Below, in pieces: positions 6,022-19,940 of a stretch of 32,000 bases of DNA. The stretch covers positions 60,001 through 92,000 of the forward strand of contig NC_014731.1 of NCBI RefSeq assembly GCF_000172995.2, written 5' to 3'. Both the position numbers and the translations under genes were made by a program. This DNA is from Halogeometricum borinquense DSM 11551 (GTDB lineage Archaea; Halobacteriota; Halobacteria; Halobacteriales; Haloferacaceae). A model generated the notes under the pieces. It saw only the letters and a list, made by a program, of their open reading frames with translations, did no database searches and had not been told where the DNA came from. Numbering within the stretch: position 1 is the first letter of the stretch; each line of letters starts with the position of its first letter.

Positions 6022-6399
6022 ATGGAAGAACTCAGTACCGACGAGGCACCGCCGAGTATCGGCCCGTTCTCGCAGGGGATCCGCGACGGAGACCGCATCT
6101 ACGTCTCAGGACAGGGACCAATCGACCCCGACTCAGGCGACATCGTCGGCGAAGACGCGACAGCACAGACCGAACAAACGCTCGACAACGTCGAGGCAGT
6201 CCTCGAATCGGCCGGGCAGTCACTCGATGACGTGGTGAAGGCAACGGTGTTCGTCACCGATATGGACGATTACGACGCTGTCAACGAAGTGTACGGCGAC
6301 AGAATGAGTCAGCCGTATCCGGCCCGAAGCGCCGTCGAAGTTGTCGAACTCCCGGTAGACATCAGGGTCGAGATAGAAGTTATCGCCAGCGCAGAGTAG
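6022..6399 (+). CDS. ridA: RidA (YjgF/YER057c/UK114) family enamine/imine deaminase
   Basis: 125 aa with the family pattern GPFSQGI, IYVSGQGPIDP, KATVFVTDMDDYDAVNEVY, PARSAVEVVELP. TATA-like TTTTCA lies 26 nt upstream of the ATG. Confidence 0.9.
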   Translation: MEELSTDEAPPSIGPFSQGIRDGDRIYVSGQGPIDPDSGDIVGEDATAQTEQTLDNVEAVLESAGQSLDDVVKATVFVTDMDDYDAVNEVYGDRMSQPYPARSAVEVVELPVDIRVEIEVIASAE

Positions 6400-6420: not shown

Positions 6421-7161
6421 TTACGTTTCTTTTGTCGCCCAGTCGAGAAGGGCACCCCAGAGTACGGGAAGCCCATCCCACTCTAAGAGTTCCATCGGTG
6501 CCCAGTGGGGCGCACAGTCCGTCGCGAAGGCGAACGTCCGGCCTGCACCGGCCTCGCCGACGACGACGAACGGGTCCGCTCGGTCACCAACCGTCGCCCA
6601 CACGTCCGCGTCGTCTTTCGCTTGGAGGTGGTTGTAACCGAGAACGGCAGGCCACGTCTCGGGAAGGTCAGCGGGAACGCCGCGGTTCATCGGGATCGCG
6701 CCAGCGGGGGTTTCGACTCTATCGTCGCCGTCACGTATCTCGACCGGAAGCACATCAGCGATTGGCGTTCGGCCATAGCGTGCCGCACCGCCCTTCCCGG
6801 CGAAACTCATGTAGCCGCCGATCATGCCGAGTGCGCCGCCGTCGCGGACGTACTCAGCGAGGAGTCGGCACCGGTCAGTGTCGGTGTCGCCTGCAGTTAC
6901 GGCGGGCGTCAACTGGAGGGAGTCTGCGCCGACGTCGCTCAGCAGCACGAGGTCGTAGCTGTCGAGTTCCTCGCGGGTGCCGGGGAACGACGTTAGCGTC
7001 TCCTCGCACGTCAAGAAGTCCACAGCTGCACCGTTGACTTCGAGCGCGGCCACAAGGTGTTCCTCGGCCGTTCCGTAGTCCGCGTCCACGAGGACGTTTC
7101 GTCCTTTGACCTCGAACGTCACCGTCGTCCACGATTCGCCCGCAAGGAGTACGCGGGTCAT
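6421..7161 (-). CDS. GATase1-like (putative glutamine amidotransferase-like, DUF1355/ThuA-like fold) protein
   Basis: 246 aa. The pattern ESW...YDLVLLSDVGADSL...GGALGMIGGYMSFAGKGG...VLPVEI...DDRVE matches my memory of the putative-GATase family found beside sugar genes. No obvious Cys-His-Glu triad was recognised. The start overlaps the stop of the upstream ADH by 1 nt. Confidence 0.6.
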   Translation of the reverse strand: MTRVLLAGESWTTVTFEVKGRNVLVDADYGTAEEHLVAALEVNGAAVDFLTCEETLTSFPGTREELDSYDLVLLSDVGADSLQLTPAVTAGDTDTDRCRLLAEYVRDGGALGMIGGYMSFAGKGGAARYGRTPIADVLPVEIRDGDDRVETPAGAIPMNRGVPADLPETWPAVLGYNHLQAKDDADVWATVGDRADPFVVVGEAGAGRTFAFATDCAPHWAPMELLEWDGLPVLWGALLDWATKET

Positions 7162-8180
7162 TACGGTCGAAGGACGGCTTTGACCACGCCGTCGCGGCGT
7201 TCACGGACCGTCTCGATGGCCGTTTCGTACTCCGCGAGGTCGAACTCGTGGGTGACGATACCGTCGATAGACAGGTCACCGCGGCGGAACAGATCGATAA
7301 CTTGGTCAACCGTATGAGAGGCGGTGACGCCGCCGACGACTTGCAACTCCTTCGAGACAATGTCGTTGGGGTCGATCTCCTTCATACCGCCGAAGACGCC
7401 CGTAAGGACGACGTTTCCGCGCTTTCTCGTCGCCTTCAGACACGTGTTCACCACGTCTCCTGCACCCGCCGCTTCGACGCAGATGTCCGCACCTTTGCCG
7501 TCGGTGTACTCCAAGATGCGCTCGACCGGGTCCTCCTCGCGGACGTTGATAGTCAACGACGCGCCGTGATGTTCACCGATTTCGAGGCGTTCCTCGCGGG
7601 TTCCAGTGAGAATCACGTCTTTGACGCCCTGCGCGCGCAGGAGTTGGACGCCGTAGAGACCGAGCGAACCCGGTCCGAGAACGACACCGGTATCGTCGAA
7701 CGAGGTAGAGACGCGTTGAAGCCCGTGAAGCGTACATCCCGCCGAGTCGATTTGGGTCGCTTCGAGATCCGACACGTCGTCGGGAATCGGCGTGAGCGTG
7801 TAGGCCGGGAGCGCGGCGTACTCGCGGTAGCCGCCGTCGATAGTGAAACCGACCTCTTTCAGGTCATCGCACTGGTAGTACCGGCCCTCCCGACAGGCCG
7901 TACAGGTGCCGCAATAGACGAATCCGTGAAGAGCCACTCTGTCGCCGACGTTCAGGTCTTCGACGCCCTCACCCAGTTCGACCACTTCGGCGCACACCTC
8001 GTGGCCGGGAACGAGCGGGTAGTCAGTCCACGGTGGACCCTCACCCTCCATCAGTCCGATGTCGCTACCACAGATACCGACTGCGGAGACGCGGACGAGC
8101 GCTTCGCCCGGTTCCGGTTCGGGACGAGGTCGATCCTCATCCCAGATACTCCCTTCTCCGTCGATGACGACTGCTTGCAT
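7161..8180 (-). CDS. Zinc-dependent alcohol/polyol dehydrogenase (MDR family, sorbitol/threonine dehydrogenase-like)
   Basis: GICGSDIGL and PGHEVCAEV (catalytic Zn ligands), structural Zn cluster CGTCTACREGRYYQC (C-x2-C-x2-C-x7-C), Rossmann GPGSLGLYG. I prefer ATG 8180 (MQAVVIDG...) because TTATTA (8207..8212, minus strand) lies 26 nt upstream. ATG 8201 is an alternative. The 546-aa ORF-track version runs through the divergent PIG-L gene and is rejected. Confidence 0.85.
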   Translation of the reverse strand: MQAVVIDGEGSIWDEDRPRPEPEPGEALVRVSAVGICGSDIGLMEGEGPPWTDYPLVPGHEVCAEVVELGEGVEDLNVGDRVALHGFVYCGTCTACREGRYYQCDDLKEVGFTIDGGYREYAALPAYTLTPIPDDVSDLEATQIDSAGCTLHGLQRVSTSFDDTGVVLGPGSLGLYGVQLLRAQGVKDVILTGTREERLEIGEHHGASLTINVREEDPVERILEYTDGKGADICVEAAGAGDVVNTCLKATRKRGNVVLTGVFGGMKEIDPNDIVSKELQVVGGVTASHTVDQVIDLFRRGDLSIDGIVTHEFDLAEYETAIETVRERRDGVVKAVLRP

Positions 8181-8267
8181 AGCGTTTTGGTTATCTAACA
8201 TCCGAGTAATAAGCGTGTCGCCGAGTGGCATAACACTTAATGTGTGATTCGTCCTCAGTGGGTGTGT

Positions 8268-8969
8268 ATGCACGTGACAGCGATAGTTGCGCATCCAGAC
8301 GACGCAGATATCTTCTGCGGCGGAACTCTCAAGAAACACGCCGAACGCGGCGACGACGTTACCATCGTCTATATGACTCGCGGCGAATACGGCGGGTTCG
8401 ACACGACCGAGGAAGAAGTGGCCGAAACGCGCGAATCGGAGGCCGAAGCGGCTGCTGAGGCCCTCGACGCGGAGGCACGCTTTCTCGACTTCCGAGACGG
8501 TCGTATCACCTACTCGATGGAGAACCGCCTCGAACTGGTTGACGTGATACGCGAACTTCGTCCGGACATCATCCTCACGCACTTCCGGGACGATATGCAC
8601 CCCGACCACCGAGTCACCTCCCGACTCGTCACAGACGCGTACTACATGGCGTCGCTGCCGTTGGCACAAACTGATCACGAGGAGTGGGAACCGGACAACG
8701 TCTACTACTTCGGAAAACCGACCGCCGACGAGTTCGACCCCGAGGTGTTCATCGACATGAGCGACCAACAGGAAGCGAAAGAGGAAGCGATTCTCCAACA
8801 CGAGTCACAAGTCGAGTGGCTAGAGGAACACGGCGGTGTGGACGCCGAATTCGACGGTCTCGTCGAAGGGGTGCGAGCGCAGGCACGGACCACGGGTCGA
8901 ACCCGCGGTGCCGAGTTCGCGGAAGGTTTCGTTCCGCTTCACAAGGGAACGTCCGAGTACCTCGAATAG
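8268..8969 (+). CDS. PIG-L/LmbE family N-acetyl-sugar deacetylase
   Basis: AHPDDADIFCGG (AHPDD motif) near the N-terminus, a second metal motif MHPDHRV, 233 aa. ATG 8268 is preferred over the GTG at 8244. TATA-like ACTTAAT lies 26 nt upstream. Confidence 0.85.
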   Translation: MHVTAIVAHPDDADIFCGGTLKKHAERGDDVTIVYMTRGEYGGFDTTEEEVAETRESEAEAAAEALDAEARFLDFRDGRITYSMENRLELVDVIRELRPDIILTHFRDDMHPDHRVTSRLVTDAYYMASLPLAQTDHEEWEPDNVYYFGKPTADEFDPEVFIDMSDQQEAKEEAILQHESQVEWLEEHGGVDAEFDGLVEGVRAQARTTGRTRGAEFAEGFVPLHKGTSEYLE

Positions 8970-8977
8970 ACGTCAGT

Positions 8978-8992
8978 ACCCCCGTTCGACTG
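8978..8992 (-). promoter_or_regulatory. ORB-like element (left, inverted) with C-run/G-string
   Basis: ACCCCCGTTCGACTG. Its reverse complement CAGTCGAACGGGGGT resembles the archaeal origin recognition box core (..CAGTGGAAAC...GGGG) with one base missing from the A-run. Confidence 0.35.
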
Positions 8993-9139: not shown

Positions 9140-9173
9140 ACTGAGACGGAGCTGACAGCCGAACCCCGACGAA

Positions 9174-10485: not shown

Positions 10486-10538
10486 ACGGGGCATGTAGAG
10501 GGAAGTTTTAATAGCGAGACATGCGCACCGCGACAGTG

Positions 10539-11537
10539 ATGCAACGAGTTGGCTTAGTCGGGAGTGGCCTCATGGCTACGACCCACGCTAACAGCTACCA
10601 GGAAGTAGACGACGCCGAAGTGGTCGCCGTCGCCTCCCACGGGGAGAATCGAGACGAATTTGCCGCCGAACACGCACCCGGAGCGGACGTGTACTACGAC
10701 CCCGAGGAGATGATGGATGATGCGGACGTGACCGTCATCGACGCCTGTACGCCGACGCCGACACACAGGCCGTTGATAGAGGCCGCAGCGGACCGCGGAC
10801 TCGACGTGTTCTCCGAAAAGCCGATGGCTCGGACGGTCGAGGACGCAGAGGCCGTTGTAAACGCCGTCGAGGAGTCTGGAATCACGTTCATGACGGGACA
10901 CGTCCTGCGATTCTTCCCGGAGTACGCCGAGGCGAAGCGCCGCATCGACGACGGTGAAATCGGGACGCCCGGAACCCTTCGTGCAGAACGACTGTCGAGT
11001 CCACCACGCTACGGCACGGAAAACTGGTTCAGCGACAAAGCCCAAAGCGGTGGTGTGCTCCTCGATATGGCTATCCACGACTTCGATTTCCTCCGGTGGG
11101 TCGCAGGCGACGTCGAACGCGTGTTCACCCGGACGGCAGAGTGGGATAACGACCACCTCCACCAACACGCCGCTGTCCACCTCCGCTTCGAGGACGGCAC
11201 CGTCGGGCAGGTCGAAACGTCGTGGGCCTACCCAGAGGACACACCCTTTACGACCGCCTACGAGTTCGCCGGCAGCGAAGGCATGCTAGAGTTCGATAGC
11301 CGGGACGAACACTCGATCCGTATTTCCGGCACCGCAGACGACGCGAACGTCCCGGCAAGTGCGTTGAAAACGAGTCCGTACACGGCCGAACTCAGACACT
11401 TCGTGGACTGTCTGGAGAACGGCACCGAACCCAAAATATCGCCAGAAGACGCCCGCGAAGCGGTTAAGATCTCGCTCGCAGCCATCGAGTCCGGCGAGCG
11501 CGGTGAACCCGTCGAGCTCTCGGAGGTGGGCGCATGA
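10539..11537 (+). CDS. Gfo/Idh/MocA family oxidoreductase (copy A)
   Basis: VGLVGSGLMA fingerprint, FSEKPMA, D-x3-H (LDMAIHDFDF). ATG 10539 (MQRVGLVG...) is preferred over 10521 because TTTAATA (10507..10513) lies 25 nt upstream. The stop overlaps the next start (ATGA). Confidence 0.85.
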   Translation: MQRVGLVGSGLMATTHANSYQEVDDAEVVAVASHGENRDEFAAEHAPGADVYYDPEEMMDDADVTVIDACTPTPTHRPLIEAAADRGLDVFSEKPMARTVEDAEAVVNAVEESGITFMTGHVLRFFPEYAEAKRRIDDGEIGTPGTLRAERLSSPPRYGTENWFSDKAQSGGVLLDMAIHDFDFLRWVAGDVERVFTRTAEWDNDHLHQHAAVHLRFEDGTVGQVETSWAYPEDTPFTTAYEFAGSEGMLEFDSRDEHSIRISGTADDANVPASALKTSPYTAELRHFVDCLENGTEPKISPEDAREAVKISLAAIESGERGEPVELSEVGA

Positions 11538-12571
11538 ACGTCAAAATCGGAATCTGTTCGACTGCGCATCTGCATGCTGATTCGTACGCGGCCTGTCTTC
11601 GAGAGAGCGATGCCGAGTTTGTCGGCGTCACTGAACACGATGACAGAGCGGACGACGCGCAGGCGAAAGCCGCGGAATACGGCGTTGATTTCTACGAACC
11701 GGACGAGTTACTCGAACGGGTCGATGGCGTCGTCGTCTGTTCGACGAACGCCGCCCACCGAGACTGGGTCGAGCATGCGGCCGACGCCGGCGTGGATATT
11801 CTCTGTGAGAAACCGCTCGCGCCATCCATCGAAGACGCCGAACAGATGGTCGAGACGTGCCGCGAGGCGGACGTCCATCTCGGAGTGGCGATGCCACTTC
11901 GGTTCAACCAACCCGTTAGAAACGCGAAGACGGCGCTCGAAGACGACGCACTCGGCGAACTACGGTTCCTCAGCGGGACGAATCGCGGACAGATGCCCGG
12001 TGGATGGTTCGCTGACCCAGAGCAGGCGGGCGGCGGCGCGGTGACGGACCACTCCGTCCACTTGGTCGATGCGGTACGGTGGATGACCGGCGAAGAGGTA
12101 GCCGAAGTGTACGCCGAGACGGGAACGCGATTCCACGATATTGCCGTCGAGGACGTGAACGTGCTATCGATGGAACTTACGGATGGAACCGAGTTTGTCC
12201 TCGACGGGTCGTGGAGTAAACCCGACGAGTGGGACAACTGGGGCGACGCAACGCTCCGTCTCGTCGGCACAGAGGGTGTCGTCTCCATCGACTGCTTCGG
12301 GCAGACGATCAAACAGACGCGCGACACGGACGACGACCCCGGGATCCGCTCTGTGTTCTGGGGTTCGAATCCCGATGAAGGACTCGTCGAAGACTTCGTT
12401 CGCGCGGTCGAAGCGGACCGCCCGCCACTGAAGACAGGGGCGGACGCGCTCGAAGACGTAGCTGTTGTCGAGGCAGCGTACGAGTCCGCAGAACAGTCCG
12501 CTCCCGTCAGCGTCGAACGACCGACCCCGAAAGGGAGAGTCGTCAGCGACGGAAGCGGAACCGAGGAGTGA
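11534..12571 (+). CDS. Gfo/Idh/MocA family oxidoreductase (copy B, variant GICSTAH fingerprint)
   Basis: N-terminal KIGICSTAHLH in place of GxGxxG, CEKPLA, DHSVH. It is a clear paralogue of the convergent gene at 12626..13621. 4-nt ATGA overlap with copy A. Confidence 0.85.
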   Translation: MNVKIGICSTAHLHADSYAACLRESDAEFVGVTEHDDRADDAQAKAAEYGVDFYEPDELLERVDGVVVCSTNAAHRDWVEHAADAGVDILCEKPLAPSIEDAEQMVETCREADVHLGVAMPLRFNQPVRNAKTALEDDALGELRFLSGTNRGQMPGGWFADPEQAGGGAVTDHSVHLVDAVRWMTGEEVAEVYAETGTRFHDIAVEDVNVLSMELTDGTEFVLDGSWSKPDEWDNWGDATLRLVGTEGVVSIDCFGQTIKQTRDTDDDPGIRSVFWGSNPDEGLVEDFVRAVEADRPPLKTGADALEDVAVVEAAYESAEQSAPVSVERPTPKGRVVSDGSGTEE

Positions 12572-12625
12572 AAATCGGGACATCGACCGACGAAAGACCC
12601 CCAACCGAGAATCAACCACAGGGCG

Positions 12626-13621
12626 TCAGATAACGCTGGTATCGACTTCGACCGGTTCGCCTCGTTCAGCAGATTCATACGCCGCTTCCATGACGGCAAC
12701 CGTCGCCACGGCGTCCGATAGCGTCGTCTGTGGTTGGCGGCCGGTTCGAACTGACTCAGCGAAGTCTCGTAACAGTTCGATGTTCGGGTCCGCACCCCAG
12801 TAGATAGATTCGACGCTCCGGTCCTGTTTCGTATCCTGCACGTGCGTACACCGCTGGCCGAAGCAGTCGGCCGAGAGCGTTCCGTCGGTGCCGACGAATT
12901 CAACGCGTGCGTCCCCCCAGAACGGGTTTTTCAGCGGTGTACTCCACGATCCGTCGAGGACGAACGACGCGCCGTTCGAGAGCGTCATCGACAGCAGATT
13001 CACGTCTTCGACCGGAATGTCGTAAAATCGCGTATCGAGTTCGGCGTACACGTCTTCGACTTCCTCGTTCGTTATCCAGCGAACCACGTCGATGATGTGG
13101 TCAGTGTGGTCCATGACGGCCCCGCCGCCCGCGAGTTCGGGGTTAGTGAACCACCCACCGGGCATCCGACCGCGGTTGACGCCTGAAACGGCGACCACGT
13201 CTCCGAGCGTGCCGTCTTCGTACGCTCGCTTGAGTCGGATCATTGGCCGACTACAACGAACGGGCATCGCCATTCCGGCGACGATACCGCTCTCGTCGCA
13301 CCGGTCTCGGAGACGTTTCGCCTCCGACAGCGACGTTGCGAGCGGTTTCTCCGTGAGAACCGCAACATCGTGAACCAGAGCCAAATCGAACAGTTCGCCG
13401 TGGATAGCCGTCGGCGAGCAGATAACGACGCCCTCGACGCTCCGCATCAGTTCCGACCGAGACATGGCTTTCGTCCCGACGGCGGACGCGCGGCGACGCC
13501 CCCGCTCGACGTTTTCATCCGAAATACCGACGAGTTCGACGTCTGAAAGTTTCGACAGCAGCGCTGCGTACACCTCAGCGTTGACGTGAGCGGTCGAACA
13601 GATACCGAGACGGACGGTCAT
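12626..13621 (-). CDS. Gfo/Idh/MocA family oxidoreductase (copy C, variant GICSTAH fingerprint)
   Basis: RLGICSTAHVN, TEKPLA, DHTDH. It shares long conserved blocks with copy B: MPGGWF, AGGGAV, VEDVN.LSM, FVLDGSWS, AYESAE. Confidence 0.85.
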   Translation of the reverse strand: MTVRLGICSTAHVNAEVYAALLSKLSDVELVGISDENVERGRRRASAVGTKAMSRSELMRSVEGVVICSPTAIHGELFDLALVHDVAVLTEKPLATSLSEAKRLRDRCDESGIVAGMAMPVRCSRPMIRLKRAYEDGTLGDVVAVSGVNRGRMPGGWFTNPELAGGGAVMDHTDHIIDVVRWITNEEVEDVYAELDTRFYDIPVEDVNLLSMTLSNGASFVLDGSWSTPLKNPFWGDARVEFVGTDGTLSADCFGQRCTHVQDTKQDRSVESIYWGADPNIELLRDFAESVRTGRQPQTTLSDAVATVAVMEAAYESAERGEPVEVDTSVI

Positions 13622-14589
13622 CGACTCACCTCACCCAGTTCGACCGGTCGTTCTTCGTCCATCGACGTGCGGACGGCGACGACGGTTCGCAATAGGTCGC
13701 CATCCGATCCGATGGCGGCCGGCGGTCGTTCGGCGCCGTGAAGTCGGTCAACGAACGCTCGGAGGAGGCGACCCCGGCAGTCATCCTCCGGCGGGTCCGG
13801 ATCGAGTGATCCATGTTCGTCTTTGAGCGCCGCGGACGCATCGTCCTCCGTGAACCGAAGTCGTCCGTGATCGCCCGCGTACTCGACCTCGACGCGCGAT
13901 TCTGGCGGGTCCGCTCGGCCCCACGTCGCTTCAACGGTTCCTCGACCGCCGTTGCGAAATCGCAGGAGGAGGTGGACGTGGGCGTACGAATCGCCGGTTC
14001 GTCGTCGTGCGAAGACGCGTTCGACCGGACCGAACGTCCAGTGGAGCGTATCTACGTCGTGTGAGACGACGTCGCAGAGGGCATCTTCGGGCGATGATGC
14101 GCGGTCGATTCCGAGATACGAGTCGTTCCATCCGACGCGGTCGAAGGGCGCGGTACGCTTCACTCGGGCGACACCGAGGGTCCCGATATCACCGGACTCG
14201 ACACCCCGTTGCAGTCGCTCGTAGAGGCGAGAGAACCGATGGGAAGAAGGCGCGTACAGCCATCCATCACCGTTCGACGCCAGTTCTTCGACACGTTCGA
14301 CCGTCTGCGTATCGAGCGCAACCGGTGGATCACACCGGACGGGAATCTCCTCGTCGAGTGCCGCCTCGACCGACTGTACGTGAGCGCTTCCGGGGCCGCA
14401 GACATCAACCGCGTCAGCCTCTGTCTCCGTGACCGCGTCGGACACCGACTCGAACGTCGGGATGGCAGTACCGGACGGCGGGTCGTCGAATCCGACCGCA
14501 GCGCAGACTGTCACATCCTCGAACCGGACGTACCGCTCGGCGTGGCCCCGGGCGGCCGGTTCGCGTCCGACGATGGCGATGCGTCGCAT
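13618..14589 (-). CDS. Divergent Gfo/Idh/MocA-like protein (copy D) lacking the canonical cofactor and EKP motifs
   Basis: 323 aa from ATG 14589 (MRRIAIVGREPAARGH...). TTATAAA (14612..14618, minus strand) lies 22 nt upstream, which supports this start over the ORF-track 14784. VRCDPP replaces the EKP motif, and D-x3-H (CDVVSHD) is retained. ATGA overlap with copy C. Confidence 0.65.
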   Translation of the reverse strand: MRRIAIVGREPAARGHAERYVRFEDVTVCAAVGFDDPPSGTAIPTFESVSDAVTETEADAVDVCGPGSAHVQSVEAALDEEIPVRCDPPVALDTQTVERVEELASNGDGWLYAPSSHRFSRLYERLQRGVESGDIGTLGVARVKRTAPFDRVGWNDSYLGIDRASSPEDALCDVVSHDVDTLHWTFGPVERVFARRRTGDSYAHVHLLLRFRNGGRGTVEATWGRADPPESRVEVEYAGDHGRLRFTEDDASAALKDEHGSLDPDPPEDDCRGRLLRAFVDRLHGAERPPAAIGSDGDLLRTVVAVRTSMDEERPVELGEVSR

Positions 14590-14611
14590 AGCTATACGTC
14601 CTCCACGATAG

Positions 14612-14618
14612 TTTATAA
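14612..14618 (-). promoter_or_regulatory. TATA-like box (TTATAAA) for Gfo/Idh/MocA-like copy D
   Basis: 22 nt upstream of ATG 14589 on the minus strand. Confidence 0.4.
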
Positions 14619-14723
14619 GCGTTCGCGAGACCGAAGACGAATTCAAACCGAAACAGAAGTAACGGAGGAGAAACCGGAACGCACCAGTGAACCACTCGAA
14701 GGCGATAGGGAACCGCCGCGAGG

Positions 14724-15935
14724 TTACGAGAGATTCTCTCGGATGCGTTCTGCGACGTACTGAGCCTCGTCGTCGGTGAGACACATCGGGTTGAGAACGA
14801 ACGTCGCATCAGCGAGAGCGTCCGCCCCGACAAACACGCGCGGATTCTCGCGTCGGAGTGCGAGGACGAGTTCCGCCGCCGTCATCCCCGCAGCGTCCTC
14901 GTCTACCGTGACGTGGAGGGCCGGGGCAACGTCCACTTTACCGCCGCCTACTGTCTCACAGGAGAGCGTGTCTACGTCAGTGAGTTCAGCGTCAAGAAGG
15001 GCAGTTCGGTCGGTCCACTCAGCAACCAGTTCGTCTTGATCCTCCTCCAAGAACAGTTCGAGCGCACGGATGAGGCCGACGAGTTCCTCTTTGCCGACTT
15101 TCAACGTCCGACCGATACCTTGTCGCGGAACGCCGTCGTAGGCCGACGGGTCGAGGAGGTCACGTGGCGGATCCCAAACTTCGGCGGCAGCGTGCATATC
15201 GAGATGCTGGAAGGCCGCAGATTCAATCAGGTCGGCGCGTCCGGCGAGGATACCCGTCGATTGCGGGCCGCGAATCGCCTTCCCGCCGCTGAAGACGACC
15301 AGATCAACGCCCGCGTCGATAAAGCGGGTGAGATTCGCCTTCGGTGGTACCTCCGCCGCAGCGTCCACAAGAACGGGAATGTCGTGCCGATGGGCGATTT
15401 CGACGACCTTCGAGAGTGGCGGCGTCGTGTACTCCTTCTGAAGATAGGCGATAGCGGCGGTATCTTCCGTGATTGCCGTCTCTATCTCCCATGGTTCGAT
15501 CGCCGCAGATCCAGTGCCGAGGTGTGGGTCGTTCGTTCCCACATCGACGATTGTCGCGCCGGCGGCCCGGATAGCGTGGTCGTAGCCAGTTCGGTGCGTC
15601 CGCGGCATGATGACTTCGTCCGGTCGGCCCTCGGTGTCGGGGAGGCGGTCCATCGCGGCTACGTCGTCACCTGCGATACACGCCGCCGTGCCGAGCGTCA
15701 TCGCGGCGGCCGCCCCGCTTGCGACGTAGCCCGCTTCGGCCCCGGTACAGTCAGTTATGAGTTCACTCGCTCGTGCCTGCAAGTCGGAGATACGGGCGAA
15801 CCCTTCGGCGGCGCGTGACATCGCTTCCACCGCCTCGGGTCGGATGAGGCTCCCGCCGATTCGTGTCTTCGTCCCCGCCGCGTTCACGACGCGCGGAACG
15901 CCAAGTTCGTCGTAGATGGATGAGTCACTCGTCAT
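14724..15935 (-). CDS. DgaE/SelA-like fold-type-I PLP-dependent enzyme (putative amino-sugar-acid ammonia-lyase)
   Basis: 403 aa. Features: an N-terminal IYDELGVPRVVNAAGTKTRIGGS block, VDAAAE, FSGGKAIRGPQSTG (presumptive Schiff-base Lys), and GIGRTLKVGKEE. From memory these match the D-glucosaminate-6-phosphate ammonia-lyase / SelA-like family. Confidence 0.75.
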   Translation of the reverse strand: MTSDSSIYDELGVPRVVNAAGTKTRIGGSLIRPEAVEAMSRAAEGFARISDLQARASELITDCTGAEAGYVASGAAAAMTLGTAACIAGDDVAAMDRLPDTEGRPDEVIMPRTHRTGYDHAIRAAGATIVDVGTNDPHLGTGSAAIEPWEIETAITEDTAAIAYLQKEYTTPPLSKVVEIAHRHDIPVLVDAAAEVPPKANLTRFIDAGVDLVVFSGGKAIRGPQSTGILAGRADLIESAAFQHLDMHAAAEVWDPPRDLLDPSAYDGVPRQGIGRTLKVGKEELVGLIRALELFLEEDQDELVAEWTDRTALLDAELTDVDTLSCETVGGGKVDVAPALHVTVDEDAAGMTAAELVLALRRENPRVFVGADALADATFVLNPMCLTDDEAQYVAERIRENLS

Positions 15936-15982
15936 ACGAGCACGGACGAACCCACACCGCCCCCGTCAATAAGTCATTCGCG

Positions 15983-16741
15983 TCAGTCGCCCGTTACACC
16001 GAGAAGCGACTGAAGCCGTTCACCCCCGCGCTGAAGTGTCTCGGCTTGGGCCGTCGATTGACCGTGTTCGAAGACGAACCATTCGATGCCGAGGTCGCGT
16101 GCGACTTCGACGGCCGATTCGAGGTCGGTATCGCCGTCTCCGAGTTCGACGTGGTCACGGTCGGGGTCGTCTACGAGCGTGTCAGTCACGTGGACCAGCG
16201 GAATCCGGTCGGCGTACGTTCGGAGGAGTGCCACCGGATCAGCACCGCCTTTCGTGGCGAGGCCAACGTCGAGTTCGAAGCCGACGCTATCGGACGTCTC
16301 ACGGATCAGTCGTTCAAACGCGAGGTCCCCGTCAATATCACCGAATTCGTGCGTATGGTTGTGATACAGGAGGTCGAATCCGCGGTCCGACAGGCGGTCT
16401 CCGAGCGACGACAGTTTCGTCGCCGTCTCCGCGACCGCCTCGGTTGACTCGAAGTGCGAGTCGTCCAATGCGGGGATGACGAGCGTCGAACAGCCGAGTT
16501 CGCCGTACATCTCCACGACGGATTCGAAGTCGCTTTCGAGTTCATCGTACGGGACGTGTGCGCTGACCGCAGACAGGTCGTTCTCCGTGAGTGCTTGCCG
16601 AACATCCTCAGGGGGCGACTCGCGGACGCGGTATGCGAACTCGACGCCGTCATATCCTTCGTCCGCGACTCGCCGGAGCACGTCCGGATACGAGTCGGTG
16701 AGATCCCTGACAGTGTACATCTGCACGGCTATCGCTGGCAT
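15983..16741 (-). CDS. Xylose-isomerase-like TIM-barrel protein (sugar phosphate isomerase/epimerase family), second copy
   Basis: 252 aa. MPAIAVQMYTVRD start, GYDGVEF, LLYHNHTHEF, FELDVG, VHVTD: typical metal-binding TIM-barrel pattern. First gene of a same-strand run 16741 -> 12626. Confidence 0.8.
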   Translation of the reverse strand: MPAIAVQMYTVRDLTDSYPDVLRRVADEGYDGVEFAYRVRESPPEDVRQALTENDLSAVSAHVPYDELESDFESVVEMYGELGCSTLVIPALDDSHFESTEAVAETATKLSSLGDRLSDRGFDLLYHNHTHEFGDIDGDLAFERLIRETSDSVGFELDVGLATKGGADPVALLRTYADRIPLVHVTDTLVDDPDRDHVELGDGDTDLESAVEVARDLGIEWFVFEHGQSTAQAETLQRGGERLQSLLGVTGD

Positions 16742-16794
16742 GTCGTGGTGGTCATCTCAGCGAATAGGCATAAGTGTACCTCACCGGAGGGCGC

Positions 16795-17125
16795 AGTGAG
16801 TGTACAACTAATAATATAGAATCCAAGGAGCGTGATGAAATATAGAATTGGCTATTGGCAGAGGAATAGAAAATAGAACCAACTTATACATTTTATAAGT
16901 AGATGAAATTGTGTATTGTGAGAAGAATACGGGAGATAAACACAAAATAGAACAGAATATTAGAAAAGTGGTGTTTTTATTACATATAATCCAATATATG
17001 GCCGTGTTCAACCGAATGAACAGTTATAAATCATTTTTAGAGAATAAACCGGCGATCAAAAATAGACTATCCAGTCAGATTATGCAATAGTTCGTACCAA
17101 ATCAAATATAAATAATTGTAACTAC
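16795..17125. other. AT-rich island in the divergent intergenic region
   Basis: Hand count 94 G+C in 300 nt over 16801..17100 (about 31%). Contains repeated AAAATAGAAC (16870..16879, 16944..16953) and a 7-bp inverted repeat ACTTATA/TATAAGT (16882..16900). Confidence 0.8.
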
Positions 17126-17305
17126 TGACCACGGCGTCCGATAAGTGGTGACATCGGAACCGGGGATGAGACGAACAAATCGAGTGGGAGAGGAGCCGAG
17201 TCGATTTGGAACCGACTGGGCGTGTAGATCCTCAGTCAACGGCCAGTGGCCCCCACTCCGCGATACTCTCGGTGGGTTTTTTGACAGCGGGGATGACCCC
17301 AGAGT

Positions 17306-18508
17306 ATGACAGGGCAACCTCCATTCCGGTCGCCGGAATGGCTCCGCCGAGATGCCATCGGCGCGCTTCGCTTCCACCGAGAGCGGTCGATGGATACGCA
17401 CTTCGGTGGCTACATCACGCAGGTGAGCGACCGAGACGGCGCGATATACGACTCGCGGACGAAACACCTCGTCCCCACCGCTCGATTCGTCTTCGCGTTC
17501 AGCATCGGCGCGCTTCTGGACGGGCCAGTGTGGTGTGAGCCAGCCGCCGAACACGGTCTCTCGTATCTTCGCAACGTCGCCTACGACGAAGAACACGGCG
17601 GGTACAGTTGGCTGTTCGAAGGTCGAAATGTGACAGACGAGACGCGCTCGACGTACGGCCACGCGTTCGTCCTTCTCGCGTACGCCACGGCGACGCGCGC
17701 CGGAATCGGAGACGTAGAGGACGACATCAGGGAGACGTTCGACATCTTGGACGAACGGTTCTGGGAAGAAGAACACGGCGCGTTTGCCAGCAACCGGACA
17801 GCCGAGTGGGATCCGGCCGAACCCGATTACCGGGGGCAGAACGCGAACATGCACTCCTGTGAGGCTCTACTCGCAGCCTACGAGGCCACCGGCGAAGAGC
17901 GATATCTCTCACGGGCGGTCACCGTCGCAGAAACCATCGCACGCGACAAACCTGACGAGGCGGATGGGCTCCTCTGTGAGCACTTTACGTCCGACTGGGA
18001 GATAGACTGGGAGTACAACCGCGACCAGAAGGCCGACCTGTTCAGACCGTGGGGCTACCAACCCGGACACATGCTCGAGTGGGCGAAGCTCCTTGTCCGA
18101 CTCCACCACCACCACGACGGCAACTGGTATCTCGACAGAGCAAAGCGGTTCTTCGACGCCTCCGTCACGGACGGCTGGGACGACGAACGCGGGGGATTCT
18201 ACTACACCATCGACCGCGACGGAGCTCCCATCGTCGATGCGAAATACACGTGGGCGCTCGAAGAAGGTCTCGGCGCGGCGGCACGTCTGGGCGCAGTGAC
18301 GAACGATGACCGCTACTGGGAGTGGTTCGACAGGATCCACGCGTACCTGCACGAGAACGCGACGAACCACTCGCTCGGGATTCGCTACGAACGGCTCACA
18401 CCCGACGGCGAAATTCACCCCACAATCGACGAGACGCCGAAAGTCAAAAGCGGATATCACCACGTCAACGCCTGCTACGAAGTACTTGAGTCGCTAGACG
18501 CAGTGTAG
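17306..18508 (+). CDS. AGE-family (N-acylglucosamine 2-epimerase / aldose-ketose isomerase) protein
   Basis: 400 aa with repeated (alpha/alpha)6-barrel motifs: YGHAFVLLAYA, NANMHSCEALLAAYEATG, GHMLEWAKLL, WALEEGLGAAARL. Confidence 0.8.
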   Translation: MTGQPPFRSPEWLRRDAIGALRFHRERSMDTHFGGYITQVSDRDGAIYDSRTKHLVPTARFVFAFSIGALLDGPVWCEPAAEHGLSYLRNVAYDEEHGGYSWLFEGRNVTDETRSTYGHAFVLLAYATATRAGIGDVEDDIRETFDILDERFWEEEHGAFASNRTAEWDPAEPDYRGQNANMHSCEALLAAYEATGEERYLSRAVTVAETIARDKPDEADGLLCEHFTSDWEIDWEYNRDQKADLFRPWGYQPGHMLEWAKLLVRLHHHHDGNWYLDRAKRFFDASVTDGWDDERGGFYYTIDRDGAPIVDAKYTWALEEGLGAAARLGAVTNDDRYWEWFDRIHAYLHENATNHSLGIRYERLTPDGEIHPTIDETPKVKSGYHHVNACYEVLESLDAV

Positions 18509-18521: not shown

Positions 18522-19940
18522 TTACTGTCTGCTGTCGGCCGGTCGCATCTTCGTCCCGTATCTCGTGACACCCTCTTGGGTGTACACGCGTCGAATCGTC
18601 GCAGTCAGTGCATCACCGATAGCCGGCTTCTCGTCGGTATCGACGACCTGCATCGGTGCGCTTACCGTCCCGCCGTCGGGGGCGTCGAGTGCGACGACCG
18701 CACTGACGTAACTCCCGTCGCGGGCCTGTTGCTCGACGAACTCAGGTGGGGCGCCGCCCTGACCGATGACTGTCGCCGCCTCGACAGTTCCGGTTCCGGG
18801 GAGCGCAACTGACTCGTAGCTATCGAGCGTGCCGCAGGACGAACACGCTCCCTCGGGTGGGAACGCGAGTGACTCGCACTCTGCGCACTGACCGGCGACG
18901 AGACGGTGGCGCTGCGGGAGCGTCCGCCGCCAACTCGGAACGCTGACGTACGCGCCGCCGCCGTCGGGTTCACCGGGTGTCACAACCCCGCGGATGCGCA
19001 GGTACTCGCCGTAAGAGAGTTCGACCGTTCCGTCTCGGTCCGATTCAGTCGGAACCGAACCATCGATGACGGCGGCAGTTGCTTCGCTTCCACTTCCGTA
19101 ACCGACGACGAGGATGCGGTCCGCACCATTGTCGAGCGCTTTCGTCAGTCCCAAGAGCGGCATCGCCGCGCCCGTATCTCCGAGTTCGTGGACGGTCGCA
19201 CCCGCCTGAATCGTCTCGGCATCGACGCCCAACTCGCCCGTAGCGCGATACGGAAGCTTCCCGTCCGGACCACCGACGGCCGCGGCGTCCACGTCAGTGT
19301 CGGCGCCGAGTTCGGAAACGGCCCCGCTGACGGCCTCGCGATAGGCCTGCCGGTCGTACTGCGTCACACCGAGGGATCGCGTCTCCGACTCGCCAGCGGG
19401 CCGGAAGCGGGTTCCCGGGTAGGTTGCGGTGTGCGTTGCGCGGTCGGTCACCACACCCGTACCGCCTTCGGAGAGGACGACTGCCGCCGCACCCGCGCCC
19501 GCGGCGTGTTCTACGTCGCTATCGGGCGCACCGAGCGGTGCGTCGCTGGCGACGACGAGAGCGGTTTCGCCCGGTCCGGCGTCGAGACCGAGCGTGAGTC
19601 CGTTGACGCCCGCATTTGCGCTTCCCGTGAGTTGGGTCGTCGCCACATCGTCTGTGAGTCCGAGGAACGAAGCGAGTCTGGCAGTAGCCGACTCCTCCTC
19701 GTTTGGCGGTGTCGTCGTCCCGAAGATCAGCGTTGTAACCGCCTCAGCGTCGATATCGGCGGCGGAGAGAGCGCGTGTCGCCGCCTCGTACCCCATCGTC
19801 AGCGTGTCTTCGTCGGCACCCGTGACGGACGTCTGTTGGATACCGTCCCCACCGAACTGGCCCCACGCCTCGCGTATCGTCTCTGCGGTGACGTAGGTCT
19901 GCGGTGCATACGCACCGACGCCTGCAAGTTCGAGCGTCAT
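18522..19940 (-). CDS. HMG-CoA-synthase-like thiolase-fold domain fused to a DUF35 Zn-ribbon/OB-fold domain
   Basis: The N-terminal ~340 aa align by eye to HMG-CoA synthase/FabH-like enzymes (DEDTLTMGYEAATRAL, VVGYGSGSE). The C-terminus has C-x2-C-x10-C-x2-C (CAECESLAFPPEGACSSC) followed by an OB-fold-like region, as in DUF35 proteins. ATGA overlap with the upstream thiolase gene. Confidence 0.75.
   Translation of the reverse strand: MTLELAGVGAYAPQTYVTAETIREAWGQFGGDGIQQTSVTGADEDTLTMGYEAATRALSAADIDAEAVTTLIFGTTTPPNEEESATARLASFLGLTDDVATTQLTGSANAGVNGLTLGLDAGPGETALVVASDAPLGAPDSDVEHAAGAGAAAVVLSEGGTGVVTDRATHTATYPGTRFRPAGESETRSLGVTQYDRQAYREAVSGAVSELGADTDVDAAAVGGPDGKLPYRATGELGVDAETIQAGATVHELGDTGAAMPLLGLTKALDNGADRILVVGYGSGSEATAAVIDGSVPTESDRDGTVELSYGEYLRIRGVVTPGEPDGGGAYVSVPSWRRTLPQRHRLVAGQCAECESLAFPPEGACSSCGTLDSYESVALPGTGTVEAATVIGQGGAPPEFVEQQARDGSYVSAVVALDAPDGGTVSAPMQVVDTDEKPAIGDALTATIRRVYTQEGVTRYGTKMRPADSRQ

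What the first reader, a model, noticed from the sequence alone, without database searches (positions are those of the whole stretch)
12626..16741. Core minus-strand operon TIM-barrel -> DgaE-like PLP enzyme -> degenerate Gfo -> Gfo, facing a convergent Gfo-Gfo pair
Seen in sequence:
- Four same-strand genes have a 47-nt gap, a 134-nt gap (with its own TATA-like box) and a 4-nt ATGA overlap.
- The last stop (12626) lies 54 nt from the stop (12571) of the convergent, translationally coupled pair 10539-12571.
- The PLP enzyme keeps the blocks I associate with DgaE: VDAAAE, FSGGKAIRGPQSTG, GIGRTLKVGKEE.

Established knowledge: the characterised DgaE acts on a 6-phosphorylated aminoaldonate made by a PTS, and a KDPG aldolase follows it.

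Inference: no kinase, PTS or aldolase accompanies it here, but dehydrogenases and a TIM-barrel protein surround it. The substrate is therefore probably a non-phosphorylated or differently oxidised amino sugar (acid). RidA sits 8 kb away and would fit as the imine scavenger.
Basis: partly seen in the sequence, partly recalled or inferred. Interest (0 to 1): 0.65.

Follow-up and report, generated by a model that had tools for sequence, protein, structure and literature searches.

The report
Haloarchaeal amino-sugar-acid deaminase gene cluster
A salt-loving archaeon carries an uncharacterised relative of the bacterial enzyme DgaE that most likely removes ammonia from an unphosphorylated amino-sugar acid, which would supply a missing step in how these archaea consume chitin-derived sugars.

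Summary
In this Halogeometricum borinquense window, four minus-strand genes lie exactly as described: TIM barrel 15983-16741, PLP enzyme 14724-15935, degenerate Gfo 13618-14589 and Gfo 12626-13621. The PLP protein is DgaE-like but not a DgaE orthologue. It scores below both NCBIfam cut-offs. It belongs to an uncharacterised "long-form" subfamily with a 27-residue insert. It lacks DgaE's His162-His163, and the three arginines modelled to hold the substrate 6-phosphate are replaced.

Across 28 haloarchaeal loci its recurring neighbours are RidA (19/28), a PIG-L deacetylase (18/28) and, in several, an authentic glucose dehydrogenase. The Gfo/TIM block accompanies it in only 7. The best reading is a non-phosphorylated 2-amino-2-deoxy-aldonate (glucosaminate-type) ammonia-lyase. 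RidA would then hydrolyse the released enamine/imine to give KDG.

Conserved TATA-like boxes precede both the PLP gene and Gfo4, so a single four-gene operon is doubtful. The TIM protein keeps every catalytic residue of a 3-keto-glycoside beta-eliminase. All functions are inferred and none has been assayed.

The parts
14724..15935 (-). Long-form DgaE/Cap15-family fold-type-I PLP enzyme (403 aa). Proposed 2-amino-2-deoxy-aldonate (glucosaminate-type) ammonia-lyase acting on an unphosphorylated substrate.
   Evidence: PDB sequence hits: DgaE 7lc0 E=4e-41 and Cap15 8t7j E=1e-38. AF2 model pLDDT 87.7. Foldseek TM 0.79/0.86 to 7lc0 and 0.81/0.89 to 8t7j. NCBIfam DgaE models score below cut-off. PLP Lys219 and Asp191 are invariant. 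The His-His pair and the Arg cluster are absent.
15966..15972 (-). TATA-like box (TTATTGA, within cgaatgacTTATTGA) in the 47-nt TIM-PLP gap, about 31 nt upstream of the PLP ATG.
   Evidence: Sequence. The same motif is conserved upstream of the PLP gene in L001 and L002, and analogous TTTCATAA / TTTATG boxes occur in other loci.
15983..16741 (-). Xylose-isomerase-like TIM barrel (252 aa) resembling the Mn2+-dependent 3-keto-O-glycoside beta-eliminase AtOGE.
   Evidence: Pfam AP_endonuc_2 E=3e-20. Best PDB hit is 8bvk (AtOGE), E=2e-22 over residues 4-235. His132, His134, Asp163, His189 and Glu233 all align to identical residues (residue roles from PMC10628242).
14613..14618 (-). TATA box (TTATAA) about 27 nt upstream of the Gfo4 ATG. 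Likely an own promoter giving a leaderless Gfo4-Gfo3 transcript.
   Evidence: Sequence. A TTAT[C/A]A box at the same distance is present upstream of Gfo4 in all 7 orthologous loci, whichever gene lies upstream.
13618..14589 (-). Degenerate Gfo/Idh/MocA paralogue (Gfo4, 323 aa). Probable non-catalytic partner of Gfo3.
   Evidence: Pfam hits are weak. The EKP motif is replaced by CDPP and there is no GxGxxG. Both changes are conserved in 7 orthologues at 45-55% identity. The 4-nt overlap with Gfo3 is shown.
12626..13621 (-). Gfo/Idh/MocA oxidoreductase (Gfo3, 331 aa). Has a 'GICST' N-terminus and keeps EKP and D-x3-H.
   Evidence: Pfam, NCBIfam, alignment. It is 48% identical to Gfo2.
11534..12571 (+). 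Gfo2, a paralogue of Gfo3. Translationally coupled to Gfo1 and convergent with Gfo3.
10521..11537 (+). Gfo1, a canonical Gfo/Idh/MocA dehydrogenase (GxGxxG and EKP present). IolG-like, but below the cut-off.
   Evidence: (TIGR04380 195.7 bits against a cut-off of 355).
6022..6399 (+). RidA-family imine/enamine deaminase (125 aa), with Arg in the PARS motif.
   Evidence: PF01042 E=4e-40. Sequence. Orthologues lie beside the PLP gene in 19 of 28 loci.
8244..8969 (+). PIG-L / CE14 de-N-acetylase.
   Evidence: PF02585 E=8e-36. PDB hits include diacetylchitobiose deacetylases 8bgn and 3wl4. Found near the PLP gene in 18 of 28 loci.
7161..8231 (-). Zn-dependent MDR dehydrogenase (356 aa). It is threonine-dehydrogenase/IolM-like, not the canonical glucose dehydrogenase.
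   Evidence: Orthologues are near the PLP gene only in L001, L002 and L020.
6421..7161 (-). GATase1_like (PF07090) protein of unknown function. Overlaps the Zn-ADH gene by 1 nt.
   Evidence: Best PDB hit is 3soz (STM1381), E=2e-45. Near the PLP gene in 9 of 28 loci.
17306..18508 (+). AGE-superfamily (N-acylglucosamine 2-epimerase / mannose isomerase-like) protein, divergent from the TIM gene.
   Evidence: PF07221 E=2e-98. NCBIfam D-mannose isomerase 226 bits, below the cut-off of 600. A 55% homologue lies in the PLP cluster of L021.

Best explanation
The 403-aa PLP protein belongs to an uncharacterised long-form branch of the SelA-like DgaE/Cap15 family. It most likely catalyses PLP-dependent alpha,beta-elimination (dehydration plus deamination) of an UNphosphorylated 2-amino-2-deoxy-aldonate, D-glucosaminate or an epimer. 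The product would be 2-keto-3-deoxy-gluconate (KDG) and ammonia.

The enzyme lacks DgaE's stereospecific proton donor His163. The enamine/imine product is therefore probably released and hydrolysed by the co-inherited RidA.

Upstream, a PIG-L/CE14 deacetylase would remove the N-acetyl group. A sugar dehydrogenase would then oxidise C1. In most haloarchaea this is glucose dehydrogenase. In this genome it would be one of the Gfo enzymes or the TDH-like Zn-ADH. Downstream, KDG would enter the haloarchaeal semi-phosphorylative Entner-Doudoroff route, so no dedicated kinase or aldolase is needed in the cluster.

In H. borinquense and six relatives this module is embedded in a conserved block of Gfo pairs plus TIM barrels. 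One TIM barrel is AtOGE-like, which suggests additional sugar oxidation and 3-keto-sugar chemistry. The TIM gene, the PLP gene and Gfo4-Gfo3 form a co-directional cluster but probably have separate promoters.

Shown here: the fold, the family placement, the residue substitutions, the gene neighbourhoods and the promoter-like motifs. Inferred: the substrate, the reaction, the role of RidA and the roles of the Gfo and TIM proteins.
For: Family and fold.

Both characterised relatives act on sugar-derived beta-hydroxy-alpha-amino acids. DgaE acts on D-glucosaminate-6-P and Cap15 on 5'-C-glycyluridine.

Catalytic Lys219 and Asp191 are invariant in 51 haloarchaeal homologues.

The phosphate-cluster arginines of DgaE map to Ala/Glu339, Gly370 and Met384. 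His162-His163 map to Glu168-Tyr169 (residue roles from PMC9529869).

RidA lies within 10 kb in 19 of 28 loci and PIG-L in 18 of 28.

An authentic GDH lies adjacent to the PLP gene in L033 (E=3e-154). Members of its ORF cluster c5 lie near the PLP gene in L008-L010, L015, L019, L021, L022, L024 and L027.

Clusters also carry sugar or oligopeptide ABC transporters, a GH3 with only the N-terminal domain, IclR and MR_MLE. In Natrarchaeobius they carry chitinases (PMC12343721).

There is a bacterial precedent for unphosphorylated GlcN1A going to KDG, with an essential RidA (OngC/OngD, PMC9537276).

No kinase, PTS or aldolase was seen in the window or in the three loci with gene calls.
Against: - There is no biochemical or genetic data for any long-form member.
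- The Arg-cluster role in DgaE rests on manual docking, not on a complex structure.
- Most short-form family representatives also lack Arg332 and Arg346, and Cap15, whose substrate is unphosphorylated, keeps two of the three arginines. The cluster is therefore not a clean phosphate signature.
- An invariant Arg366 and an insert-borne Arg271 might create another anion site. I could not inspect model coordinates.
- This genome's cluster lacks the canonical GDH, and its Zn-ADH is TDH/IolM-like. The window's paralogue may therefore use a different amino-sugar acid.
- Haladaptatus litoreus has two copies in different contexts that fall in different subclades.
- The window's GH3 is the three-domain form (GH3 N- and C-terminal domains plus Fn3-like), not the single-domain GH3 seen in the Natrinema and Natrarchaeobius loci.
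- Bacterial long-form contexts differ: penicillin amidase with PhyH, or MR_MLE with a ThDP enzyme.
Confidence: 0.5

Rival explanations
1. It is an orthodox DgaE-type enzyme. Glucosaminate is first phosphorylated by an unidentified kinase, and the PLP enzyme converts D-glucosaminate-6-phosphate to KDPG. This is the scheme drawn for Natrarchaeobius in PMC12343721.
For: The closest characterised sequence relative is DgaE. This pathway was proposed in the literature. KDPG is also an Entner-Doudoroff intermediate in haloarchaea (established knowledge).
Against: All three modelled phosphate-binding arginines are replaced, one by Glu in the haloarchaeal consensus. The score is far below the DgaE equivalog cut-off (186 against 600 bits). 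No kinase was seen in the window or in the loci with gene calls. The 2025 authors themselves had to invoke an unknown kinase. The adjacent GDH produces unphosphorylated aldonates.
Confidence: 0.1
2. The PLP enzyme performs different chemistry on a sugar-derived amino compound. Options are Cap15-like O2-dependent decarboxylating oxygenation, retro-aldol cleavage, or transamination of a keto-sugar made by the neighbouring Gfo dehydrogenases. In this cluster it would work mainly with the Gfo/TIM genes.
For: Cap15 is as close structurally as DgaE (TM 0.81/0.89; E=1e-38). The family is functionally diverse and half of its representatives are long-form with unknown function. The window gene is flanked by an AtOGE-like TIM barrel and Gfo genes. 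Gfo-plus-aminotransferase pairs are a known way to make or degrade amino sugars (established knowledge). Weak DegT/aminotransferase profile hits were found.
Against: Tight, widespread linkage to RidA is the hallmark of enzymes that release enamines or imines, that is, eliminating deaminases. The Gfo/TIM block is absent from 21 of 28 loci, while active-site residues stay invariant. Nothing indicates a secondary-metabolite context. The aminotransferase profile hits are local and much weaker than the DgaE hit.
Confidence: 0.25
3. The cluster is biosynthetic, making an amino sugar or amino-sugar acid for N-glycans or the cell envelope, rather than catabolic.
For: Gfo3, Gfo1 and Gfo2 give sub-threshold hits to archaeal UDP-GlcNAc 3-dehydrogenase. 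In L033, GlmU-like, GlmS and epimerase/dehydratase genes lie a few kb downstream.
Against: The recurring neighbours are uptake systems (ABC, MFS), glycoside hydrolases, a deacetylase, GDH, IclR regulators and RidA. No glycosyltransferases or nucleotidyltransferases occur in the window.
Confidence: 0.05

Closest known systems
[quoted passage not shown]
   Same: Same SelA-like fold-type-I architecture (TM 0.79/0.86). About 28-31% identity over the full length. PLP lysine in S-G-x-K, Asp in VDAAAE, the GI(A/G)R..K(V/I)GKE block and His112/His114 are all shared. Probably the same reaction type, beta-elimination of a 2-amino-3-hydroxy sugar acid.
   Different: Scores below both NCBIfam cut-offs. 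Has a 27-residue conserved insert after DgaE His237. His162-His163 are replaced by Glu-Tyr. Arg301, Arg332 and Arg346 are replaced by Ala(Glu), Gly and Met. No PTS or DgaF aldolase in the neighbourhood. Archaeal host. Linked to RidA.
Cap15, O2- and PLP-dependent monooxygenase-decarboxylase of capuramycin biosynthesis (PDB 8t7j)
   Same: Equally close in fold (TM 0.81/0.89) and in sequence (E=1e-38). Its substrate is also a sugar-borne beta-hydroxy-alpha-amino acid.
   Different: Cap15 is short-form and sits in an antibiotic gene cluster. It keeps Arg at the positions equivalent to DgaE 301, 332 and 346 in part. The window protein is in a catabolic-looking sugar cluster with RidA.
OngB-OngC-OngD-KdgK pathway for N-acetylglucosaminic acid in marine bacteria (PMC9537276)
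   Same: Same proposed logic: deacetylase, then PLP deaminase acting on unphosphorylated glucosaminate to give KDG, with an essential RidA protein. Phosphorylation occurs only at the KDG stage.
   Different: OngC is a fold-type III PLP enzyme, unrelated in fold. OngB is a D-aminoacylase, not PIG-L. The bacterial substrate arises from LPMO-oxidised chitin, whereas here a dehydrogenase would make the acid.
Predicted GlcNAc pathway of Natrarchaeobius (PMC12343721, 2025)
   Same: Same gene family (their 'DGA') in haloarchaeal clusters with a CE14 deacetylase, GDH, IclR and a RidA-family gene. L013 is from N. versutus.
   Different: That paper assumes an unknown kinase and a 6-phosphorylated substrate, and calls the RidA-family gene a RutC-type repressor. 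It does not describe the Gfo/TIM block variant or the residue differences from DgaE.
AtOGE, 3-keto-O-glycoside beta-eliminase of Agrobacterium (PDB 8bvk), and the Gfo + TIM-barrel oxidative glycoside-cleavage systems
   Same: The window TIM protein aligns over nearly its full length, with identical metal ligands and catalytic His. Gfo-family oxidoreductases are adjacent, as in the Agrobacterium operon.
   Different: Only 84 bits of similarity. No activity data. The metal-ligand set is shared widely in the xylose-isomerase-like superfamily. The partner dehydrogenases here are unusual paired Gfo proteins, one of them degenerate.

Membership tests
[quoted passage not shown] | Score at or above the NCBIfam cut-offs (NF047797 equivalog 600 bits; TIGR01437 DgaE family 385.3 bits) | tested here: not met
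   185.9 and 202.8 bits.
[quoted passage not shown] | SelA-like fold-type-I PLP fold with the Schiff-base lysine (Lys213) and the pyridine-N aspartate | tested here: met
   Foldseek top hit is 7lc0, TM 0.79/0.86. Lys219 and Asp191 are invariant in 51 homologues.
[quoted passage not shown] | His162-His163, described as strictly conserved in DGL sequences; His163 is the C3 proton donor | tested here: not met
   They align to Glu168-Tyr169. None of the 60 long-form representatives has the His-His pair. The definition comes from PMC9529869.
[quoted passage not shown] | Arg301/Arg332/Arg346 cluster placed at the substrate 6-phosphate | tested here: not met
   Profile-profile alignment maps them to Ala339 (Glu in the consensus), Gly370 (invariant) and Met384. 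Caveat: the cluster was assigned by docking only.
[quoted passage not shown] | Genomic association with a mannose-family PTS (DgaABCD) and the KDPG aldolase DgaF | tested here: not met
   No PTS or aldolase domains in the window or in the loci with gene calls.
[quoted passage not shown] | Catalytic activity on D-glucosaminate-6-phosphate | not testable with these tools
   Requires an enzyme assay.
SelA (selenocysteine synthase) | TIGR00474 score of at least 267.9 bits, and close structural match to SelA | tested here: not met
   54.7 bits. TM only about 0.58 to SelA structures. The protein is 403 aa, against a 455-position SelA model matched only from position 73.
Cap15-type O2-dependent PLP monooxygenase-decarboxylase | Close fold match, and location in a nucleoside-antibiotic biosynthetic cluster | tested here: inconclusive
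   The fold match is met (TM 0.81/0.89). The context is not met, since this is a sugar-catabolic neighbourhood. The chemistry cannot be tested here.
3-keto-glycoside beta-eliminase (AtOGE-like), for the TIM gene 15983-16741 | Metal ligands His132, Asp163, His189 and Glu233, plus catalytic His134 | tested here: met
   All five align to identical residues (YHNH, ELDV, VHV, FEH). Residue roles come from PMC10628242. Activity is not testable here.
Gfo/Idh/MocA NAD(P)-dependent oxidoreductase, for Gfo4 13618-14589 | N-terminal GxGxxG dinucleotide loop and the EKP catalytic-lysine motif | tested here: not met
   The N-terminus reads IVGREPA and EKP is replaced by CDPP. Both changes are conserved in all 7 orthologues. 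The C-terminal domain and D-x3-H are retained.
RidA imine/enamine deaminase, for 6022-6399 | YjgF/Ribonuc_L-PSP domain with the active-site arginine (the Arg105 equivalent; its role is recalled from established knowledge) | tested here: met
   PF01042 E=4e-40. The PARS motif is present in the sequence.
Single four-gene operon | Co-directional genes with short gaps and no internal promoters | tested here: inconclusive
   Co-directionality and gaps of 47, 134 and -4 nt are met. However, conserved TATA-like boxes precede the PLP gene and Gfo4 in orthologous loci. Transcript mapping is needed.

The most novel reading that the evidence does not exclude
Haloarchaea may run a wholly non-phosphorylative, redox-driven amino-sugar pathway not yet described in Archaea. 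In it, paired Gfo dehydrogenases, each with a non-canonical or catalytically dead partner subunit, together with an AtOGE-like Mn2+ eliminase, would cleave amino-disaccharides or other amino-glycosides through 3-keto intermediates instead of using a glycosidase. The freed amino sugar would be oxidised to the aminoaldonate. A new long-form DgaE-family lyase, working obligatorily with RidA, would then deaminate it to KDG. This would also give the classical but sequence-poor activity 'glucosaminate ammonia-lyase' a fold-type-I sequence family shared by Archaea and several bacterial phyla.
Probability: 0.15. Interest if true: 0.8.

Novelty: new variant of a known kind. Interest (0 to 1): 0.52.

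Why it matters
How chitin-degrading and other haloarchaea metabolise GlcNAc or GlcN after deacetylation is explicitly described as unresolved (PMC12343721). If this long-form DgaE relative deaminates unphosphorylated glucosaminate, the missing link is closed without any unknown kinase. GlcNAc would go to GlcN, then glucosaminate, then KDG, which joins the semi-phosphorylative Entner-Doudoroff pathway these organisms already use.

It would also assign a function to a large uncharacterised subfamily. In the 50%-identity representative library, 814 proteins match at E<=1e-30, and half of the 121 full-length proteins among the best 150 hits carry the insert. Databases currently label these proteins 'selenocysteine synthase' or 'aminotransferase class V'.

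It would further give a natural example of a PLP eliminase that lost its internal proton donor and became dependent on RidA.

The conserved pairing of active and degenerate Gfo proteins, and the AtOGE-like TIM barrel, would be an entry point to oxidative glycoside cleavage in Archaea.

Tried and rejected
- Single-sequence AF2 of the PLP enzyme gave an unusable model (pLDDT 42.5). It was repeated with a 51-sequence alignment.
- I searched homologues of the GATase1_like protein, hoping to reach Salmonella STM1381 and test whether a SelA-like gene neighbours it there. The best 120 hits were all haloarchaeal, so the idea remains untested. A literature search for STM1381/STM1382 was uninformative.
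- Cluster look-ups of bacterial long-form representatives returned only names from uncultured Dehalococcoidia, NC10 and Inquilinaceae, with no functional annotation.
- Contexts of two bacterial homologues (L023, L028) showed no RidA, GDH or PIG-L and gave no clear function.
- The Phillips 2021 DGL structure paper is not held. Residue roles were taken from the 2022 follow-up.
- PDB sequence searches for TIM_A, Gfo1 and Gfo3 gave only uncharacterised or distant hits.
- Literature searches for experimental work on glucosaminate or SelA-like genes in haloarchaea found nothing beyond the 2025 in-silico proposal.
- Selenocysteine synthase function was rejected (see the membership test).
- The idea that the window's Zn-ADH is the glucose dehydrogenase was rejected. 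It is TDH/IolM-like, and the true GDH orthologue occurs next to the PLP gene in other genera.
- My NJ tree misplaced L001, L005 and L035, probably because of over-extended or wrongly chosen ORFs. It is used only for the coarse statement that the two Haladaptatus litoreus copies fall in different subclades.
- Rfam and tRNA scans of the window were empty.
- The repeat search in the AT-rich spacer found only weak imperfect repeats.

Full report
**Origin and gene map.** The PLP protein is 99% identical to a Halogeometricum borinquense protein. The window carries an Orc1/Cdc6 gene, so the host is a haloarchaeon and promoters should be read as TATA/BRE types. Pfam and NCBIfam scans, together with independent gene calls in two other H. 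borinquense assemblies, give this map:
- SBP 106-1437(-) and ABC ATPase 1581-2744(-)
- GfoA 2829-3791(-), TIM_A about 3882-4685(+), MFS 4713-5870(-)
- RidA 6022-6399(+), GATase1_like 6421-7161(-), Zn-ADH 7161-8231(-), PIG-L 8244-8969(+)
- Orc1 9205-10485(+), Gfo1 10521-11537(+), Gfo2 11534-12571(+)
- Gfo3 12626-13621(-), Gfo4 13618-14589(-), PLP 14724-15935(-), TIM 15983-16741(-)
- AGE-like 17306-18508(+), followed by HMG-CoA synthase, thiolase and a GH3

**Observation.** Every number in the finding is reproduced.
- The gaps are 47 nt and 134 nt.
- Gfo4 and Gfo3 overlap in ATGA.
- The convergent stops are 54 nt apart.
- Gfo1 and Gfo2 overlap by 4 nt.
- The three peptide blocks are present.
- RidA lies 8.3 kb away.
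- No kinase, PTS or aldolase domain occurs in the window.

The only qualification is that the 54-nt spacer belongs to a 64-nt strain-specific indel (window 12539-12602). In strain CP048739 the two 3' ends overlap.

**What the PLP enzyme is.** By sequence, the best solved relatives are DgaE (7lc0, E=4e-41) and Cap15 (8t7j, E=1e-38). SelA is far behind at E about 1e-5. An AF2 model built on 51 haloarchaeal homologues is confident (pLDDT 87.7, pTM 0.86). It superposes on DgaE (TM 0.79/0.86) and Cap15 (0.81/0.89), and only loosely on SelA (about 0.58).

It fails the curated DgaE models: 186 bits against 600 for the equivalog, and 203 against 385 for the family. A search of 1.84 billion representatives finds 814 relatives at E<=1e-30. 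Among 121 full-length representatives, 60 are 'long-form' like the query. These carry a conserved insert of about 27 residues (QHLDMH...WDPP...GVPR) after DgaE His237. None of them has DgaE's His162-His163, and 38 of 60 have no basic residue at the three DgaE arginine positions. Named long-form members outside the Halobacteria come from Dehalococcoidia, NC10 and an alphaproteobacterium. The protein therefore sits in an uncharacterised clade beside DgaE and Cap15, not in a clade of known different function.

**Active-site comparison.** PMC9529869 states that His162 and His163 are strictly conserved in DGL, that His163 is the stereospecific C3 proton donor, and that the substrate phosphate was docked at Arg301, Arg332 and Arg346. 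A profile-profile alignment of the haloarchaeal family against a short-form/DgaE alignment (hhalign, probability 100%, E=3e-121) gives these correspondences:
- Lys213 to Lys219, and the VDAAAE aspartate to Asp191. Both are invariant.
- His162-His163 to Glu168-Tyr169. Tyr169 is at least 90% conserved.
- Arg301 to Ala339, which is Glu in the family consensus.
- Arg332 to Gly370, which is invariant.
- Arg346 to Met384, which is at least 90% conserved.

Loss of the whole cluster, including one charge reversal, argues against a 6-phosphate on the substrate. Three caveats apply. The cluster was assigned by manual docking. Most short-form relatives also lack Arg332 and Arg346, and Cap15, whose substrate is unphosphorylated, keeps two of the three arginines. 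I also could not inspect coordinates to exclude a new anion site formed by the invariant Arg366 or the insert-borne Arg271.

**Comparative genomics.** One scan of GTDB species genomes returned 30 loci, 27 of them haloarchaeal. Three further haloarchaeal loci came from contig look-ups. tblastn of the window's proteins against these loci and ORF clustering show the following.
- The Gfo block (Gfo4-Gfo3, Gfo2-Gfo1, Orc1, PIG-L, TIM_A-GfoA) accompanies the PLP gene in only 7 genomes: Halogeometricum, Halegenticoccus, a Haloferacaceae MAG, one of the two Haladaptatus litoreus copies, and Halocatena.
- RidA orthologues (64-76% identity) lie within 10 kb in 19 of 28 loci, typically 0.8-2.5 kb away.
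- PIG-L lies within 10 kb in 18 of 28 loci, and GATase1_like in 9.

In Haladaptatus paucihalophilus the called genes run as follows: Opp-type ABC transporter, MR_MLE, PIG-L, GATase1_like, an unknown gene, PLP, Zn-ADH, RidA. That Zn-ADH is an orthologue of Haloferax mediterranei glucose dehydrogenase (E=3e-154). Members of its ORF cluster lie beside or near the PLP gene in nine other loci. Natrinema loci add a single-domain GH3, a CUT1-type ABC transporter, MR_MLE and IclR.

The 2025 Natrarchaeobius paper finds the same gene ('DGA') in chitinase clusters. It proposes GlcNAc to GlcN (CE14), then glucosaminate (GDH), then an unknown kinase, then DGA giving KDPG, explicitly as an untested hypothesis. 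It labels the RidA-family gene a RutC repressor. The window's RidA has the PARS arginine typical of imine deaminases (the residue's role is from established knowledge).

**Mechanism proposed.** Four points are relevant:
- Both characterised relatives act on sugar-borne beta-hydroxy-alpha-amino acids.
- Linkage to RidA marks enzymes that release enamine or imine products.
- H163A DGL accumulates a transient and loses stereospecific protonation, and the authors suggest that His163 prevents release of a reactive intermediate. The haloarchaeal enzymes naturally lack that His and have RidA instead.
- Bacteria already show the unphosphorylated route from GlcN1A to KDG, with an essential RidA, using an unrelated fold-type III enzyme.

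Haloarchaea phosphorylate at the KDG stage in their semi-phosphorylative Entner-Doudoroff pathway (established knowledge). This explains why no kinase or aldolase needs to be in the cluster. I therefore favour, at about 0.5, an unphosphorylated 2-amino-2-deoxy-aldonate ammonia-lyase working with RidA.

The specific sugar in H. borinquense is less certain. Its cluster lacks the GDH, its Zn-ADH is threonine-dehydrogenase/IolM-like, and its GH3 is the three-domain form. The two copies in Haladaptatus litoreus fall in different subclades, so the Gfo-context paralogue may prefer another epimer.

**The other three genes of the finding.** The TIM protein's best solved relative is AtOGE (8bvk, E=2e-22), the Mn2+ 3-keto-O-glycoside beta-eliminase. 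Four metal ligands and the catalytic His134 all align to identical residues (roles). The next hits are uncharacterised-by-name sugar phosphate isomerase structures 8tcd and 8tcs.

Gfo4 is indeed degenerate. It has no GxGxxG, and EKP is replaced by CDPP. These changes are conserved in all seven orthologues, which remain intact ORFs at 45-55% identity. It is therefore a maintained pseudo-enzyme, probably a partner of Gfo3, with which it is translationally coupled.

Gfo2 and Gfo3 are 48% identical paralogues with an unusual GICST N-terminus. The locus thus holds two mirror-image pairs: Gfo1 with Gfo2, and Gfo4 with Gfo3. Their substrates cannot be assigned, because all NCBIfam hits are below cut-off. 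C1 oxidation of an amino sugar, or C3 oxidation feeding the AtOGE-like eliminase, are both plausible.

**Operon structure.** A TTAT(C/A)A box sits about 27 nt upstream of the Gfo4 ATG in all seven loci, whichever gene lies upstream. That is the geometry of a haloarchaeal promoter for a leaderless mRNA. The 47-nt TIM-PLP gap contains cgaatgacTTATTGA, which is conserved in L001 and L002, and other loci have TATA-like boxes at similar distances upstream of the PLP gene. Gene order also varies. The TIM gene lies upstream of the PLP gene in the window and L001 (it was not detected in L002), whereas in L004, L006, L007 and L019 it lies between the PLP gene and Gfo4, with RidA adjacent to the PLP gene in L004 and L007. 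The four genes are a conserved co-directional cluster, but probably two or three transcription units. Read-through cannot be excluded computationally.

**Verdict.** The protein is a new variant of a known enzyme kind: a DgaE-family lyase adapted to an unphosphorylated substrate and dependent on RidA. It lies in a pathway that was sketched in silico in 2025 but has never been tested. Interest is moderate (0.52). The finding makes an acknowledged gap in haloarchaeal amino-sugar catabolism directly testable and would annotate a large mislabelled family. The core idea is not unprecedented, and all functional claims remain inferential.

Noticed in passing
window 9205-10485 (+): An Orc1/Cdc6 paralogue sits inside the sugar cluster, between PIG-L and Gfo1. 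It is syntenic at 67-72% identity in 7 genomes of about 5 genera. No typical origin-like repeats flank it. There is only an 11-nt inverted repeat at 8973-8983 / 9134-9144. It may travel with the island or have a non-replicative, regulatory role.
   Followed up: partly
window 16742-17305: A 564-bp strongly AT-rich intergenic region lies between the divergent TIM and AGE genes, in a genome of about 61% GC. It has imperfect direct repeats of 23 nt and 17 nt. It is variable between strains: CP048739 carries an extra 420 nt here.
   Followed up: partly
window 10521-14589: There are two mirror-image, translationally coupled Gfo pairs. Each pairs a canonical or degenerate subunit (Gfo1 / Gfo4) with a 'GICST'-type subunit (Gfo2 / Gfo3, 48% identical). 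Gfo1/Gfo2-like pairs recur 7-9 kb from the PLP gene in L014 and L021. This suggests obligate heteromeric Gfo enzymes.
   Followed up: partly
window 6421-8231 (-): The TDH/IolM-like Zn-ADH and the GATase1_like (PF07090) gene overlap by 1 nt, and the same pair is adjacent in L034. The best solved relative of GATase1_like is Salmonella STM1381, of unknown function. From memory, not tested here: a GATase1-like partner to a dehydrogenase recalls ThuA with the Gfo-family ThuB in 3-keto-trehalose formation.
   Followed up: partly
L033:8499-9503 (-), and homologues in L013, L015, L017, L020, L026: A conserved 333-344 aa protein with no Pfam hit lies in the PLP gene clusters of six loci and is directly adjacent to the PLP gene in L033. 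It is absent from this window. It is a candidate for a missing step, for example a glucosaminidase or lactonase, in the GDH-context clusters.
   Followed up: partly
window 12539-12602: A 64-nt indel relative to H. borinquense CP048739 spans the C-terminal tail and stop of Gfo2 and part of the convergent spacer. In the other strain the Gfo2 and Gfo3 3' ends overlap.
   Followed up: yes
window 18522-21139 (-): An HMG-CoA synthase fused to a DUF35-type zinc ribbon/OB domain (zf-ChsH2, OB_ChsH2_C) overlaps a thiolase gene by 4 nt. This is the archaeal mevalonate-pathway trio encoded as two genes, and it is unrelated to the sugar cluster.
   Followed up: no
literature: PMC12343721, Figure 5: The RidA-family gene in the haloarchaeal chitinase/DGA clusters is annotated there as a 'RutC family transcription repressor'. 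The orthologous window protein has the features of an imine deaminase.
   Followed up: yes
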